Notes: generated by a model not told the origin, from the letters alone. A stretch of DNA of 64,000 bases from Octopus vulgaris (GCA_951406725.2 OX597820.1:16430001-16494000); one strand, 5' to 3'. Positions 590 through 33,988 are shown, counted from the stretch's first letter. Translations and numbers: made by a program.

Positions 590-675
590 AGACCTACACA
601 TGTTTCAACTGCAACGATTAGTGACAGTTGCAATTGGAACCCTATTATAATACCGGTGCCGTTTCTTCAGGGTCC
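590..675 (-). ncRNA. Type I hammerhead ribozyme (Penelope-like), extended stem II
   Basis: Minus strand GGACC-CTGAAGA-AAC...GTT-GAAA-CATGT-GTA^GGTCT; stem I 5 bp; 57 nt between the core halves; lies between microsatellites. Confidence 0.75.
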
Positions 676-1299
676 TTACTTAATATCCTTCGATTTAAAT
701 GTTTAAAGTTTTTCGTTATATCTACTCTACGTTGTATGAAGTAAAGTTCTTCGCTAAGTCATATATAGTATATATATATATATATATATATATATATATA
801 TATATATATATATATATATATATATATATATATATATATATATATATATATATATATATATACATATATATATAACTATACATATATATATATATATATA
901 CATACATACATATATATACATACACATACATACATACATACATACATACATACATACATACATACATACATACATACATACATACATGTAAGTATCTAGA
1001 GTGTGGTAAAATTAGTCTAGAGGACTGATACTTTAACAATGGTGTAGGGTGTGTGCTGCCCGGCTGGCCTTTAGGTTGGCTATTCACCCACACTCCACTT
1101 CCGCCCCTATACATGCTTATATGGCAAACCCCCAAAATGCAACTACTATAACAGCGCCCTTCCTCCTCACTTGAATATGCTACTGTATTTTGTACATTCA
1201 TAGATAATAAAAAAACGCTTCTGGGATCAAATATGTATACCAGTGGCGTACGGTGGTCTCTGTATTGGAAAGACTGATGCCTCGTTCGGCCCACACACG

Positions 1300-2360
1300 T
1301 GTCCAAAGTCTGCCAATACATACAACATCTTTTGACCACCAAGTGTTGAGGTGCATCCCTTGATCAAGTTTGCATACATGAAGCTGATAACATCATAAGA
1401 CTTGGAAGGCAGCTCCTTGAGCAACACTCTTTGTCTGATAACCTAAAATATATGCCCAAAGACGTCGCACGACTCTACTGCATCATATCATGAGATGAAA
1501 GGACGAGACTGTATGAGTAGAAGACTAAGCATGGATATGTTAGTAGAAAACTCTTTGATGATAGTAACATTGATTATCAAAGCAGTTTATCATGGACGAA
1601 GAGCCAGATTATTACCTCCCACTTTCAATCCAGGAACAGGAAATATTAACCAAGCACCTGATGCACAAAAGGGATACAGATGCGGGAAAAGCCGTAAAAT
1701 GTGACAACCGATGCAGACTTTGTGGAGTTCACACTAAAGATATCACCCTCATCATAAGCAGTTGTCCGAAAATGTATTATCTACCGATGAGACATGACGT
1801 AGTTAGGACACTCTATGGAGAAATCCGTCGGAAGGATAATCCCGAGAACAAAGAAATAAAACCCCACAATATGGTAGAAGCCATAGCCACTCATAATGAA
1901 AAGGATGTACCAGTAGTGGAATATACCAGTGAAGACCTCAATAAAATGTAAGCACAACAGGCCTGACATAATGATTTGGGATGGAGAAGAGAAACTGTGC
2001 ACAGTTGTGGAAATTAGCTGCCCAGCGGATGCTAATATAAAGCTGAAGATCAGTGAAAAAGAGAACACCTATGCTGAACTGTTGAGAAATCTGCAGTTAC
2101 TCTATCCAGATTACAAGATCAGGTTTATACCTGTAATTATTGGAACCCTGGGATATGTAACACACTGCTTAAATACCAATCTTGAGAAATAAGGCTTCTC
2201 AAAACCAGAATGGAGAAAGCTAATTCGAAGGCTACAGATCCAATCCATCACCGGAACTGTAAAAATTTGTAAAACTTTACAGAAGTTTATCATTTAAATA
2301 TATATAAGCATGTCTAGATATGTAATTCTATGCATGAGAATACATACATAAAACATACAA
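1300..2360 (+). mobile_element. Decayed RLE-type non-LTR retrotransposon (R4/Dong-like), 3' part
   Basis: Frameshifted ORFs with zinc-knuckle-like CRLC...IISSC and restriction-like endonuclease motif NRPDIMIW...VVEISCP...EKENTY...IPVIIGTLG; ends in (TACA)n; boundaries approximate. Confidence 0.8.
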
Positions 2361-3079
2361 ATCTGTACATACATACATACATACATACAGACAGACAGAC
2401 AGGCAGATGGACAGACGGACAGACAGACAGACAGACAGACAGGCAGACAGACAGACAGACAATGAGACGGACAGAAATGTAAACACGAAAAAGAGTGTTC
2501 AATACATGTAACAATGTTTAATTGAGTACAGTCGATGTTTCACTCCGTAACAATTCGTAGATTCACGGTCGGAAAGATCATTCGCGACATTGGGAAGTGA
2601 ATACTTGCAAACAAGATGGCGGATGAAATTATTACTGATACTCGGCTCTTATTGGTTAGAAGAGATCAGGTGGCGTGCTTCAGTTCAGTTCAGCGTCTTA
2701 CGTTGAGGCTGAAGGCAGCGGAGGAGGAGATAATGAATGTGTGTGTGTGTGTATGTGTGTGTGTGTGTGTGTGTGTGTAGAAGCGCTATGTAGTGATGTG
2801 TATAAAAACAAGCTTGTTACCAGTTCAAGTATGTTTGGGGCATATTTGAACTGTTAACAGGTTTTTATATACGTATATATGTATGAGTATGTGAGTGTGT
2901 CTCTGTGTGTATATGTATATGTGTGTGAGTAAGTATGTATGTATGTATGTACGTACGTATGCATGTATGTACGTTGATATGTATGTTTGTATATATGTGT
3001 GTATGCATATATGTGTGTATGTATATGTGTATGTAAGTACATATGTATGTATGTGTGTTCTGTTTTTATTTAAATTCTT

Positions 3080-3290
3080 CCCCTCTGAGGAAGGAGCTGA
3101 TTTCTAACAAAGATACAATCCTTCTTGCTTGGAATATAAATAATAAAAGCGGTGCCACATTCTAAACTTGAGAAAAGTCTTGCATATTTTTATTGTTCTC
3201 CTTACAGATTGTATTATTTGTATGATGGTTGTCAGGTCACTCTCGAGTTTTACTGGTAACTTGTAACCCATTAGAACATGTGGCATGGTC
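3080..3290 (-). mobile_element. 3' fragment of a related RLE LINE
   Basis: IIQIIQSVRRTIKICKTFLKF resembles the C-terminus QIQSITGTVKICKTLQKF of the 1300-2360 element. Confidence 0.55.
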
Positions 3291-31185: not shown

Positions 31186-32398
31186 GCCCGGATGCAGTCA
31201 TTACACTGTGGACATGCTGGGGCACTGTTTTTTAAAGAATTTTTAGTCGAACGAATCGATCCCAGGACTTTCTTTTTAAAGCCTGATACTTTATTTTGCC
31301 AAACTGTTAAGTTACAGGGGCGTAAACACACCAATCCCAGTTTACATGTGTGTATATATATATACACACACACACATACATACATATATATAGATAGATA
31401 GATAGATAGATAGATAGATAGATAGATAGATAGATAGATAGATAGATAGATAGACAGAAAGACAGATAGATAGATACGTACATATAATAAATACGTATGT
31501 AGATATATATTACATATATAAATAAATATATATATATATATATATATATATATATATATATATATATATACATATATATACATATATATACATATATATA
31601 TATATATATATATATATATATATATATATATATATATGTATACATATATATGTATATACATACATACAGACATACATAATGTACCATTCCTCTTTTTCAT
31701 ATAAAATACTTTGACGCAGTCATGTTCTGACATGTTTCTCTTTCCCTCTCTCCTTTCCCCCTCTCTTTCTCTTTCTCTCTCTCTCTCGTCATCCTCCTTT
31801 TCTTTCTCCAACTCTCTCTCTCTCCTTCTCTCTCTCTCTCTCTATGCCTTGTTTTCTCTCCCTCTCTTCACAATTGCGATAAACGATTCTTAACAAATTG
31901 CTGCACAACAGGAACACGGCTTTCGCTTCTTTATTTATTATTATTATTATTATTATTATTATTATTATTATTATTATTATTATTATTATTTTATTATTAT
32001 TATTCTTTCTTTGTTCTACGCCCTCCCCCAAGACAAGGGTGTTAAACCAAATTATTAACAATTGATTTGCAGAAATACAAATAAGAAGAAAAAAAAGCAA
32101 AATCAACAAAAAAAAACTATAAATAATTACACAAAAAGAGAAATCAATTAACAATAAAAACAACAACAGCCACAGGAAAAGGAGGATTTCAACGCGAGCT
32201 GCGGAGCAAAACATCAACTGTTGCCATTTTTGAGCGAGATTTTGTCCGGTTCGTTAGCTTCTGTTTTTGCTTTTAGCAACGCCTTTGCAAATACGCCATT
32301 TTTTTTTCTGGGGTTACTCTCTCCGCACCTCATCTTCTGTTGTTTAATTCCCCTCTTTTATTTCTGTATTTCTTTTTATTTGTTTCCTTGCTGAGGTA

Positions 32399-32910
32399 CC
32401 GTAAATCCTCGAGTATTTTCCGCATTTTCTTCCCAAAATTTAATGGTCAATATCCCTACTGCGTACTATATACTAGGATAAAAATGAAAATTATTTTCTA
32501 AGCAATGTCCGAGTCTCTATTTGTTGTCCGGCAATGTTTATTCAGACGCATTTTGTGATGTCAGGCGCAAAAATACCTTAAGCTAAGCCTGAAAGCAATG
32601 AAGTCATAAAAGAATCATCCGTAACTTGCAGTTAGCAACATTTATTAAACGTTATTACTGTTATTTCTTTATTTTCTGCAAACAAAATGCACAAAAAAGC
32701 TACACGTTTGCATTATGTTATATGTACAATAATAATAAAGGACGTTACCGTATACAGTTTTACAAACCAAGGACGTTATATAGACCTCCTTGACTCAAGT
32801 TAGAGAAGGGGTTCGTGTTATACACAAGGTTTAGATTTTTCAGAGGTACAGCCCCCTAACAATCCCCTATGTATTATACTCAAGGGCAGACTATACTCGA
32901 GGATTTACGG
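32399..32910. mobile_element. pogo/Tigger-like MITE
   Basis: Perfect 18-bp TIRs CCGTAAATCCTCGAGTAT/ATACTCGAGGATTTACGG; TA TSD. Confidence 0.85.
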
Positions 32911-33872
32911 TATTTACGAGAGTAAATAGTGAGATACCAGAGAAAGTATACATGTAAAATGATGATAATTGCTTCGTTTTGTCAGATGACGATTGTCTCA
33001 CATTCAAACGGAATGTTTGGATTTGGGACTTGGGATTTTGGATTTATTCTCATCCATGCAAGTGCACAGATATGGCTTTTCACAGATATGGCTTTTTACG
33101 CCACGCTTCCATTGCCATAGGTCTTTATATAATACAAATCGGATCAAGAACTGAAACGGCAGTAGGATATATGTTCTAATGACCTTCCAAAAGGTCTGAA
33201 AAAGCAACGTTTTTGTAAAAGCCTCTCTTTCATAAAATGCAGTCATGGCGTGTAGTTGCGAGATTACTTCACACACGCGCACGCACACACACACACACAC
33301 ACACACACACACATGTATGTATGCGTACGTTCTATTTTAGCGCTGATATTGGTACGAACCTGAAATGTGAGGGCAGATGATAGATAGATAGATAGATAGA
33401 TAGATAGATAGATAGATAGATAGATAGATAGATAGATAGATAGATAGATAGATAGATAGATAGATAGATAAAGAGAGAGACACAGAGAGACAGACAGACA
33501 GACAGACAGACAGATAGACAGATAGAGAGAGAGATAAAGAGAGACAGACAGACAGACAGGTAGACAGAGAGAGATAGGTAGATTAGATAGATAGAGAGAG
33601 AGAGAGAGAGAGAGAGAGAGAGATAGGTAGGTATGTGGGTAGGTAGGTATGTAGGTAGATAGATAGATATATATATATATATATACTACAAAATTAGAGA
33701 GTGGAGAAACATACTTAAATCAATAAAACATCAACTATCCGATGATACCTAATCAATACTTTAATACACCATTACATATGAGTAGAGGCATTATACAAAA
33801 AGAGATATACATTAATAGTAAAAAGATAAAGAGATATAAGTAAAAAATTTCAAATATAATATGCAATTAATC

Positions 33873-33988
33873 AAAACTGACAGCTGTTTCGGCAGTGAGG
33901 GCAGTCATACCTCATTTAACCTATAAGCCATAAAGGCAGGTATAAATGAGGCATTAACAAGGATGCCCCACGGCCTCTTCAGAGAATT
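33873..33988 (-). ncRNA. Type I hammerhead with an 85-nt stem II domain
   Basis: Minus strand CT-CTGAAGA-GGC...GCC-GAAA-CAGCT-GTC^AG; palindromic stem III ACAGCTGT; stem I weak. Confidence 0.7.

What the first reader, a model, noticed from the sequence alone, without database searches (positions are those of the whole stretch)
590..33988. Dispersed Penelope-type hammerhead ribozymes with palindromic stem III and very large structured stem II, carried by (TA)n-associated fold-back elements
Seen: five sequence-unrelated loci share one type I layout, stem I - C(T/C)GA(A/T)GA - stem II - GAAA - short self-complementary stem III - GTA/GTC - stem I. They are 590-675 (-), 20383-20434 (+), 21186-21263 (+), 28255-28347 (+) and 33873-33988 (-). 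Their stem IIIs are ACATGTGT, ACTCAGAGT, ACATATGT, ACAATTGT and ACAGCTGT. Stems differ in sequence between loci but still pair. Four have 57, 51, 59 and 85 nt of hairpin-rich sequence between the core halves. Three sit in long inverted repeats, giving an outward-pointing ribozyme on each strand, and all lie near (TA)n. Known: Penelope-like elements carry minimal type I hammerheads with palindromic stem III thought to act as dimers, and they often insert with inverted termini. Inference: this is a diverse, abundant set of non-autonomous Penelope derivatives whose enlarged stem II may form an extra domain (stabiliser or RT-recognition site) that length-limited motif searches would miss.
Basis: partly seen in the sequence, partly recalled or inferred. 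Interest (0 to 1): 0.82.

Follow-up and report, generated by a model that had tools for sequence, protein, structure and literature searches.

The report
Penelope-element hammerheads with oversized stem II

Summary
All five hammerhead layouts are at the stated places, with three extra copies on the opposite strand. A strict descriptor gives 5 hits against a mean of 0.05 in 100 shuffles.

Contigs laid on locus 4 show a multi-copy family under two organism labels. Matched changes keep the stem III palindrome and stem II pair 2, and many copies end in (TA)n.

The layout is that of 5'-truncated, inverted, tailed Penelope-like 3' ends. The closest published match is the Hydra clade (Craig 2021, which lists an Octopus family); locus 2 nearly copies a listed Hydra hammerhead.

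What is new is stem II of 51-85 nt. Listed Hydra ones reach about 24 nt, which is also the cap of the published descriptor. It is a stable rod at loci 4 and 5 only, and about 50-nt precedents exist in spike-moss elements.

'Non-autonomous', 'paired ribozymes' and 'RT-recognition site' are unsupported. No ORF link or cleavage could be tested.

The scan noted Penelope hammerheads before (225 notes, one Hydra-type); none held all my words for an enlarged stem II. New variant of a known kind; interest 0.4.

The parts
514..761 (-). Locus 1: single Penelope-like 3' end between TA/CA microsatellites; ends 81 nt past the predicted cut
   Evidence: both ends placed by me at the microsatellites
590..675 (-). 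Locus 1 hammerhead: core 670-664, stem II domain 663-607 (57 nt, two hairpins, weak closing stem), stem III 603-596, predicted cut after 595; probably misfolded or decayed
20303..20460 (.). Locus 2 inverted repeat (78-nt arms, 1 difference); short arm ends 37 nt past the cut at (TA)n
20386..20432 (+). Locus 2 hammerhead, ordinary size: core 20394-20400 (C at position 4), 3-bp stem II with GCAA loop, 9-nt stem III, predicted cut after 20423
   Evidence: same inner stem I and stem III pattern as Hydra-2_aMil in File S2 (by eye)
20331..20377 (-). Locus 2 hammerhead, copy on the other arm (core from 20369, cut after 20340)
20461..20533 (+). Locus 2 tail (one arm only), starting with a bulged hairpin at +44 from the cut; ends 110 nt past the cut at (TA)n
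   Evidence: similar hairpin at +39 to +43 in two Hydra consensi (by eye)
20912..21296 (.). Locus 3 inverted repeat (136-nt identical arms, 113-nt spacer 21048-21160); short arm ends 37 nt past the cut
21186..21263 (+). Locus 3 hammerhead: core 21190-21196, stem II domain 21197-21247 (51 nt, weak), stem III 21251-21258, predicted cut after 21259
20945..21022 (-). Locus 3 hammerhead, copy on the other arm (core from 21018, cut after 20949)
21297..21380 (+). Locus 3 tail (one arm only), AC-rich; ends 121 nt past the cut at (TA)n
27733..27835 (-). Locus 4 tail (left arm only); ends 138 nt past the cut at (TA)n; part of the repeat family
27836..28374 (.). Locus 4 inverted repeat (242-nt arms, 3 differences; the 55-nt spacer 28078-28132 is 5' sequence of the left arm)
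27867..27952 (-). Locus 4 hammerhead, left arm: core 27948-27942, stem II 27941-27883 (59-nt rod), stem III 27879-27872, predicted cut after 27871
28255..28348 (+). Locus 4 hammerhead, right arm: core 28262-28268, stem II 28269-28327, stem III 28331-28338, predicted cut after 28339; active scaffold within 0.3 kcal/mol of the best fold
33686..34243 (-). Locus 5: single Penelope-like 3' end between (TA)n and (GATA)n; ends 193 nt past the cut; 5' limit approximate
33873..33988 (-). Locus 5 hammerhead: core 33982-33976, stem II 33975-33891 (85-nt rod, z -6.7), stem III 33887-33880, predicted cut after 33879; stem I damaged

Best explanation
The five loci are likely 5'-truncated 3' ends of five families of endonuclease-bearing Penelope-like retrotransposons that insert into (TA)n, most like the Hydra clade, each carrying a type I hammerhead motif whose 8-9 nt palindromic stem III is predicted to form only between two copies. 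Inferred cycle: in a tandem parent transcript two hammerheads pair through the palindromes and cut the RNA. The element's reverse transcriptase starts at one of two sites (about 37 nt, or 110-140 nt, past the cut) on a nick in (TA)n and stops early. Two such short cDNAs joined head to head give the inverted repeat with one short and one tailed arm, and these inverted copies are dead ends. The 51-85 nt stem II is likely an expanded, self-folding rod that is kept paired because it must close the catalytic core; it would act as a folding scaffold and not as the site the reverse transcriptase recognises. Shown: motifs, geometry, (TA)n ends, matched changes in one family. Inferred: clade, cleavage, dimer, insertion route, role of the rod.
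For: Motif above chance. Locus 4 family: 2,005 contigs laid in X1 and 1,719 in X4 (another organism label). Stem III partners 27877 and 27874 change at matching rates (81 and 80 contigs in X1; 69 and 64 in X4), turning an A-U pair into G-C and keeping the palindrome. Stem II pair 2 changes C-G to U-A (27940 in 37 contigs, 27884 in 58, X1). Changes at 27920 and 27930 restore or add pairs (mapped). A loose end at 27904 shows a different-sequence palindromic hairpin in place of the apical one (3 contigs). Of the core, only the free position N7 varies in the three contig sets among the 40 rows shown. Loose ends at 27837 read as (TA)n in 16 (X1) and 32 (X4) contigs. Depth falls about 100-fold towards the 5' side and the family continues past 28132. 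Short arms end 37, 37 and 35-38 nt past the cut and tailed arms 110, 121 and 138 nt; six Hydra consensi end 36, 46, 47 or 88, 97, 116 nt past theirs (counted by eye). Hydra: almost all (TA)n, one Octopus family, 9-10 nt palindromic stem III. Stem III self-duplex -6.0 to -11.1 kcal/mol against +2.4 to +3.0 for a monomer hairpin. Inverted 5'-truncated copies, tails and opposite-strand hammerhead pairs 100-700 bp apart are described; two internal RT start sites explain the tail.
Against: No RT or endonuclease ORF is linked: a six-frame motif scan gave only stray hits and no genome is held. None of five short window motifs is in the published Naiad, Chlamys or Hydra consensi (line breaks could hide one). 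The four long-stem loci have 8-nt palindromes, whereas listed Hydra ones have 9-10 nt, so they may belong to another TA-targeting clade such as Neptune. The raw-read run X22 laid only 4 reads, all under 90% alike, which does not show a high copy number. Contigs give no haplotypes, so the matched changes are matched in frequency only; 21 variant rows were not shown; one common change (27891) breaks a G-U pair of the rod unless a hidden change compensates, and 27941 changes G10.1 in about a fifth of X1's depth. Loci 1 and 3 have weak stem II folds. Only one of four long-stem families was sampled. The shared tail word of loci 2 and 3 is weak (3 of 300 shuffles, 10 pairs tried).
Confidence: 0.7

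Rival explanations
1. The enlarged stem II is a functional module, for example a protein-binding or tertiary-contact domain that switches cleavage on or recruits the reverse transcriptase.
For: It occurs in four sequence-unrelated families, always together with an 8-nt palindrome; the rod is kept by matched changes and an exchanged apical hairpin in the locus 4 family; the anole element's hammerhead needs protein to cleave.
Against: No shared sequence, length or internal shape between the four domains; absent at locus 2 and in 26 of 26 Hydra rows of File S2; in the anole element RNA starting at +20, past the start of stem II, still supported insertion, and RT started downstream in an AC-rich stem-loop.
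Confidence: 0.2
2. The families are short non-autonomous elements (retrozyme-like or MITE-like Penelope derivatives) with no coding parent of the same sequence.
For: No ORF in any copy; no coding signal in the 5' parts seen; animal retrozymes are proposed to derive from pLTRs (preprint 10.64898/2026.07.22.740005).
Against: No head-to-tail tandem units and no second direct copy in the window; 5' ends are ragged, from about 13 to about 260 nt before the core; depth decays gradually 5' and continues past the copy; Hydra 3' UTRs are about 175-240 nt (by eye), so these copies would be too short to reach an ORF.
Confidence: 0.2
3. The long stem II is a neutral fold-back by-product of an inversion-prone reverse transcriptase, tolerated in hammerheads that no longer cleave.
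For: These elements make inversions readily (three of five loci); loci 1, 3 and 5 have damaged stems; hammerhead cleavage was not needed for insertion in vitro.
Against: The core is not seen to vary while N7 does, and both stems show matched changes in the locus 4 family; the rods are imperfect and interrupted, not fresh perfect palindromes.
Confidence: 0.15
4. Chance motifs in AT-rich repeats or DNA-transposon (MITE) inverted repeats.
For: Other inverted repeats without a clear hammerhead exist in the window (270-423, 55094-55235); Rfam has no hammerhead hit at three loci tested.
Against: 5 versus 0.05 in shuffles; identical geometry in three unrelated families; asymmetric tailed arms; matched changes. 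Rfam also misses the ordinary-sized locus 2, so the miss is not informative.
Confidence: 0.02

Closest known systems
Hammerheads of Hydra-clade Penelope-like elements (Craig, Yushenova, Rodriguez, Arkhipova 2021, PMC8557442; passages, section 11 and supplement Files S1, S2, S7 read), e.g. Hydra-2_aMil, Hydra-1_oBim
   Same: Type I hammerhead near the 3' end; palindromic stem III beginning AC and ending GU; 4-7 bp stem I; (TA)n insertion; two end classes (36-47 and 88-116 nt past the cut); an Octopus family is listed; locus 2 has the same inner stem I and stem III pattern as Hydra-2_aMil and a similar tail hairpin (by eye).
   Different: Listed Hydra stem II domains are at most about 24 nt against 51-85 nt at four loci; listed palindromes are 9-10 nt against 8 nt at those four; no sequence match to the published consensi; no ORF available here.
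Minimal hammerheads in pseudo-LTRs of metazoan Penelope-like elements (Cervera and de la Pena 2014, PMC4209133; parts 1-2 of 4 and supplement passages read; Lunse et al. 2017 seen only through review PMC6765202)
   Same: Palindromic stem III, dimer model, mostly single truncated copies, opposite-strand pairs 100-700 bp apart, many divergent families per genome.
   Different: Their descriptor allows stem II of 3-7 bp with a 3-10 nt loop and only a minimal stem III, so it would miss all five loci.
Spike-moss PLE-X1_sMoe and PLE-X1_sTam hammerheads (File S2 of PMC8557442)
   Same: Penelope-like element hammerheads with an enlarged stem II domain of about 50 nt, flagged there as deviating from the canonical structure.
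   Different: Plant, endonuclease-less, rDNA-targeting elements with other stem III; not TA-targeting animal elements.
Poseidon element PAc of Anolis (Frangieh et al. 2024, PMC11167929; parts 1-2 of 4 read)
   Same: Hammerhead upstream of two internal RT start sites that define the tail; AT-rich target.
   Different: Minimal hammerhead overlapping the ORF start, 30-40 nt tail; tails here are about 73-103 nt and no ORF start is evident.
Non-LTR retrozymes of animals (Cervera and de la Pena 2020, PMC7229834, passages; Li et al. 2026 preprint, parts 1-2 of 5)
   Same: Non-coding repeats with type I hammerheads, linked to Penelope-like elements.
   Different: Retrozymes are head-to-tail tandem units; these copies are single or inverted with ragged 5' ends.

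Membership tests
Type I hammerhead ribozyme | Conserved core CUGANGA, GAAA, A15.1-U16.1 and NUH | tested here: met
   All five loci; locus 2 has C at position 4; in the locus 4 family only N7 varies in the contig sets among 40 rows shown
Type I hammerhead ribozyme | Stems I and II closing on the core, stem I open-ended | tested here: inconclusive
   Met at loci 2 and 4; weak at 1 (+10.4 kcal/mol), 3 (base mismatch) and 5 (2-bp inner stem I)
Type I hammerhead ribozyme | Self-cleavage after H17 | not testable with these tools
   No assay; no raw RNA reads were listed
Penelope-like element 3' end | Hammerhead with palindromic stem III close to the element's 3' end | tested here: met
   palindrome kept by matched changes
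Penelope-like element 3' end | 5'-truncated inverted copies with a tail on one side only | tested here: met
   Loci 2, 3, 4; described
Penelope-like element 3' end | Linked ORF with telomerase-like RT and GIY-YIG endonuclease | tested here: inconclusive
   None in the window; copies too short; no genome; collections hold no locus 4 match
Hydra clade | Insertion into (TA)n | tested here: met
   family-wide loose ends. Shared with Neptune and Naiad, so not diagnostic
Hydra clade | Hammerhead with 9-10 nt palindromic stem III and short stem II as in File S2 (a typical trait, not the clade's definition) | tested here: inconclusive
   Met at locus 2; not met at loci 1, 3, 4, 5 (8-nt palindrome, 51-85 nt stem II)
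Hydra clade | Cut-to-end distances in two classes | tested here: met
   35-38 and 110-138 nt here; 36-47 and 88-116 nt in six consensi counted by eye; loci 1 (81) and 5 (193) fit less well
Hydra clade | Protein marks: RWK, DKT, CxCX5C linker, endonuclease without CCHH | not testable with these tools
   No coding part in the copies; motif scan gave only stray hits
Naiad clade | No canonical hammerhead; match to published cephalopod Naiad 3' ends | tested here: not met
   Complete cores present; 0 of 5 motifs in the supplement; Naiad_Ovul and Naiad_Esco 3' ends look different by eye
Neptune clade | CX2-5CxxC linker ORF; microsatellite bias | not testable with these tools
   No ORF; no Neptune sequences at hand
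Non-LTR retrozyme | Head-to-tail tandem units each with a hammerhead | tested here: not met
   Self-BLAST finds no direct copy of any of the five loci in the window

The most novel reading that the evidence does not exclude
A distinct subtype of Penelope-element hammerhead (perfect 8-nt dimer palindrome plus a 50-85 nt stem II rod) is the commonest form in cephalopod TA-targeting elements and has been invisible to every published descriptor; the rod is a working module that controls when the ribozyme cuts or where the element's protein binds, and other families recorded as lacking a hammerhead may hide the same form.
Probability: 0.2. Interest if true: 0.65.

Novelty: new variant of a known kind. 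Interest (0 to 1): 0.4.

Why it matters
The role of hammerheads in Penelope-like elements is still open: they are conserved, yet cleave poorly and were dispensable for insertion in vitro. Families that keep the core and the dimer palindrome while stem II grows several-fold give natural deletion and swap experiments for what the ribozyme needs. They also show that descriptor-based counts of ribozymes in animal genomes miss whole families: here four of five well-formed families exceed the published stem II cap. The elements themselves are an already described kind.

Tried and rejected
No whole genome is held, so no genome-wide census or family alignment was possible.

Rfam: no hammerhead among the 150 of 266 matches listed for the window, and none at loci 2, 4 or 5 scanned alone.

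Collection scans for the locus 4 family found nothing: metagenomes and prokaryote genomes. General long-stem patterns gave 0 and 15 viral loci and 43 metagenome loci; none passed the stem tests. Three of the 43 (L027, L036, L046) first looked like long stem II and turned out to fold as long stem III.

Sequencing runs: no RNA holder listed. X14 is RNA only by guess, so its 174 contigs are not used as evidence of expression. Only locus 4's left arm and tail (417 nt) were laid, on 4 of 24 listed runs; summed contig depth is not a copy number.

Naiad origin was considered because of the (TA)n target and the 'HHR_half_core' notes; rejected. Aligning the five tails gave no common sequence; a shared word between loci 2 and 3 is weak. 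One search stopped part-way on a coordinate error and was redone.

Literature: 'long stem II' with hammerhead and Penelope, 0 papers; 'extended helix II', 1 paper, whose passage is about helix III; cephalopod or Octopus searches returned only Craig 2021 as relevant. Lunse et al. 2017 is not held and may list long-stem variants; one of the two supplement files of Cervera 2014 could not be searched; the preprint's supplements were not seen; Repbase was not available.

The organism is taken as octopus-like from recalled repeat features; no call tested it.

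
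Full report
OBSERVATION. The five layouts are present exactly as written, with stem II domains of 57, 10, 51, 59 and 85 nt. A strict descriptor finds five sites (locus 1, both arms of locus 2, both arms of locus 4) against a mean of 0.05 and a maximum of 1 in 100 block-wise dinucleotide shuffles. Loci 3 and 5 need a relaxed scan. Chance matches to similar patterns elsewhere lack the stems: 0 of 15 viral loci and 0 of 43 metagenome loci pass. Quality differs between loci. The long stem II is a strong rod at locus 4 (z -5.0 right arm, -3.1 left) and locus 5 (z -6.7), and no better than shuffles at loci 1 and 3. The active scaffold lies 0.3 kcal/mol above the best fold at locus 4 right, 2.0-4.5 at loci 2, 3, 4 left and 5, and 10.4 at locus 1; locus 5's stem I is damaged.

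SURROUNDINGS. The window is 38% GC, microsatellite-rich animal DNA with a tektin exon, TPR exons and transposase fragments. I take it as octopus-like from recalled repeat features; no call tested this and no genome is held. Loci 2, 3 and 4 are inverted repeats with 1, 0 and 3 differences over 78, 136 and 242 nt, so they are young. In each, one arm stops 35-38 nt past the predicted cut and the other runs on to 110, 121 or 138 nt; both ends meet (TA)n. Loci 1 and 5 are single copies. The five families share no detectable sequence and have no second copy in the window. No Penelope-type ORF was found.

FAMILY EVIDENCE. I laid four runs on locus 4's left arm and tail. X1 gave 2,005 contigs and X4, under another organism label, 1,719. 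The two stem III partners 27877 and 27874 change at matching rates (81 and 80 contigs in X1, 69 and 64 in X4), which swaps an A-U pair for G-C and keeps the palindrome. Stem II pair 2 changes from C-G to U-A (37 and 58 contigs in X1). Two more changes restore or add pairs, and three contigs carry a different palindromic hairpin at the tip. In the contig sets the only core position among the 40 rows shown is the free N7. Loose ends at the short end read as (TA)n in 16 and 32 contigs. Depth drops about 100-fold towards the 5' side and the family continues beyond this copy. Against this: contigs give no haplotypes; 21 rows were hidden; one common change breaks a G-U pair; G10.1 changes in about a fifth of X1's depth; and the raw-read run X22 laid only 4 reads, all under 90% alike, which I cannot explain (read filtering or a different organism under the same label are possible).

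WHAT IT IS. Inverted 5'-truncated copies, a one-sided tail and hammerheads in pseudo-LTRs are the standard anatomy of Penelope-like insertions. Opposite-strand hammerhead pairs 100-700 bp apart were already noted in Schistosoma. The closest match is the Hydra clade of Craig et al. 2021: almost all families insert into (TA)n, one is from Octopus bimaculoides, and their hammerheads have 9-10 nt palindromic stems III. Locus 2 repeats the inner stem I and stem III pattern of Hydra-2_aMil and has a similar bulged hairpin about 44 nt past the cut (by eye). Six Hydra consensi end 36-47 or 88-116 nt past their cut (by eye). The clade is defined by protein marks I could not test, the four long-stem loci have 8-nt palindromes, and Neptune also favours microsatellites. 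So Hydra is likely for locus 2 and only plausible for the rest. Published cephalopod Naiad ends do not match.

HOW IT LIKELY WORKS. Stem III cannot fold within one copy (+2.4 to +3.0 kcal/mol for a 2-bp hairpin) but pairs between two (-6.0 to -11.1), as in the published dimer model. That needs two sense copies, as in a tandem parent. The inverted pairs do not supply them: a read-through transcript has one sense copy and is predicted to fold back into a long hairpin (76-87% paired). In the anole element the reverse transcriptase starts at two internal sites downstream of the hammerhead, which makes the tail; the hammerhead needs protein to cleave; cleavage is not needed for insertion; and RNA starting at +20, past the start of stem II, still works. 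By analogy the recognition site here would lie in the tail region and not in stem II. I therefore read the long stem II as a rod under selection to stay paired and close the core. This step is inferred, and a specific function is not excluded.

NOVELTY. The elements and their hammerheads are a known kind. The enlarged stem II is the new part: all 26 Hydra rows of File S2 have at most about 24 nt, the 2014 descriptor caps it at 24 nt and the 2021 core search at 17 nt. Two spike-moss elements in the same table already have domains of about 50 nt, so enlargement as such has precedent. My searches found no paper on long stem II in Penelope hammerheads or on cephalopod ones beyond Craig 2021; Lunse 2017 and Repbase could not be read. 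Earlier notes of this scan cover Penelope hammerheads often (225 notes), a Hydra-type one once, none holding all words for an enlarged stem II and none on look-alike DNA.

VERDICT. Observation confirmed, interpretation partly supported. New variant of a known kind; interest 0.4; a functional stem II module has about a 20% chance and would merit about 0.65.

Noticed in passing
window 62939-63368: A sixth, older inverted repeat (84.5% identical arms) with a decayed hammerhead-like motif on each arm: short 5-6 bp stem II with an extra nucleotide after the core, one core change per arm. Looks like the minimal type of Cervera 2014; not next to (TA)n.
   Followed up: partly
L027 1178-1275 (+), L036 and L046 (-), one metagenome assembly with animal-like DNA: A repeat family of about 300 nt whose hammerhead has a duplicated stem III palindrome with about 45 nt between the copies; in 2 of 3 copies the best fold pairs them into a 7-bp intramolecular stem III, a built-in mimic of the dimer. 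Stem II is weak. Decayed inverted relatives without the duplication lie in L027 455-1046.
   Followed up: partly
window 270-423 and 55094-55235: Short perfect-centre inverted repeats without a recognisable hammerhead; the first abuts (TA)n just left of locus 1 and may be the end of another TA-targeting family.
   Followed up: no
window 30678-31231: Broken, dispersed fragments of eukaryotic 18S rRNA on the minus strand with a short internal tandem repeat.
   Followed up: no
window 52495-52863 (+); 59337-60557 (-): Last exon of a tektin gene (PF03148, E 1e-18) and TPR-containing exons of a convergent gene, FKBP-like by eye.
   Followed up: partly
window 25747-26079 (-), 36166-36486 (+), 13427-13732 (-), 1574-2192 (+): Transposon remnants: mariner HTH and hAT dimerisation domains by Pfam; Tc1-like and restriction-like-endonuclease non-LTR fragments by eye only, no Pfam hit.
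   Followed up: partly
window 27350-27705: Locus 4's left (TA)n tract interrupts a copy of the abundant SINE-like repeat of this window, so the element inserted into or beside it.
   Followed up: no
Supplement File S5 of PMC8557442, 3' ends of Naiad_Ovul and Naiad_Obim: By eye these ends hold both hammerhead core halves in reversed order, with a 6-bp stem before GAAAC whose loop could pair with the bases before CUGAUGA, suggesting a permuted hammerhead where the paper records only a half core. Not folded or tested.
   Followed up: no
window 20401-20410: Locus 2's whole stem II is the same 10 letters as loop 2 of Penelope-2_NV in File S2; may be convergence on a GNRA hairpin.
   Followed up: no
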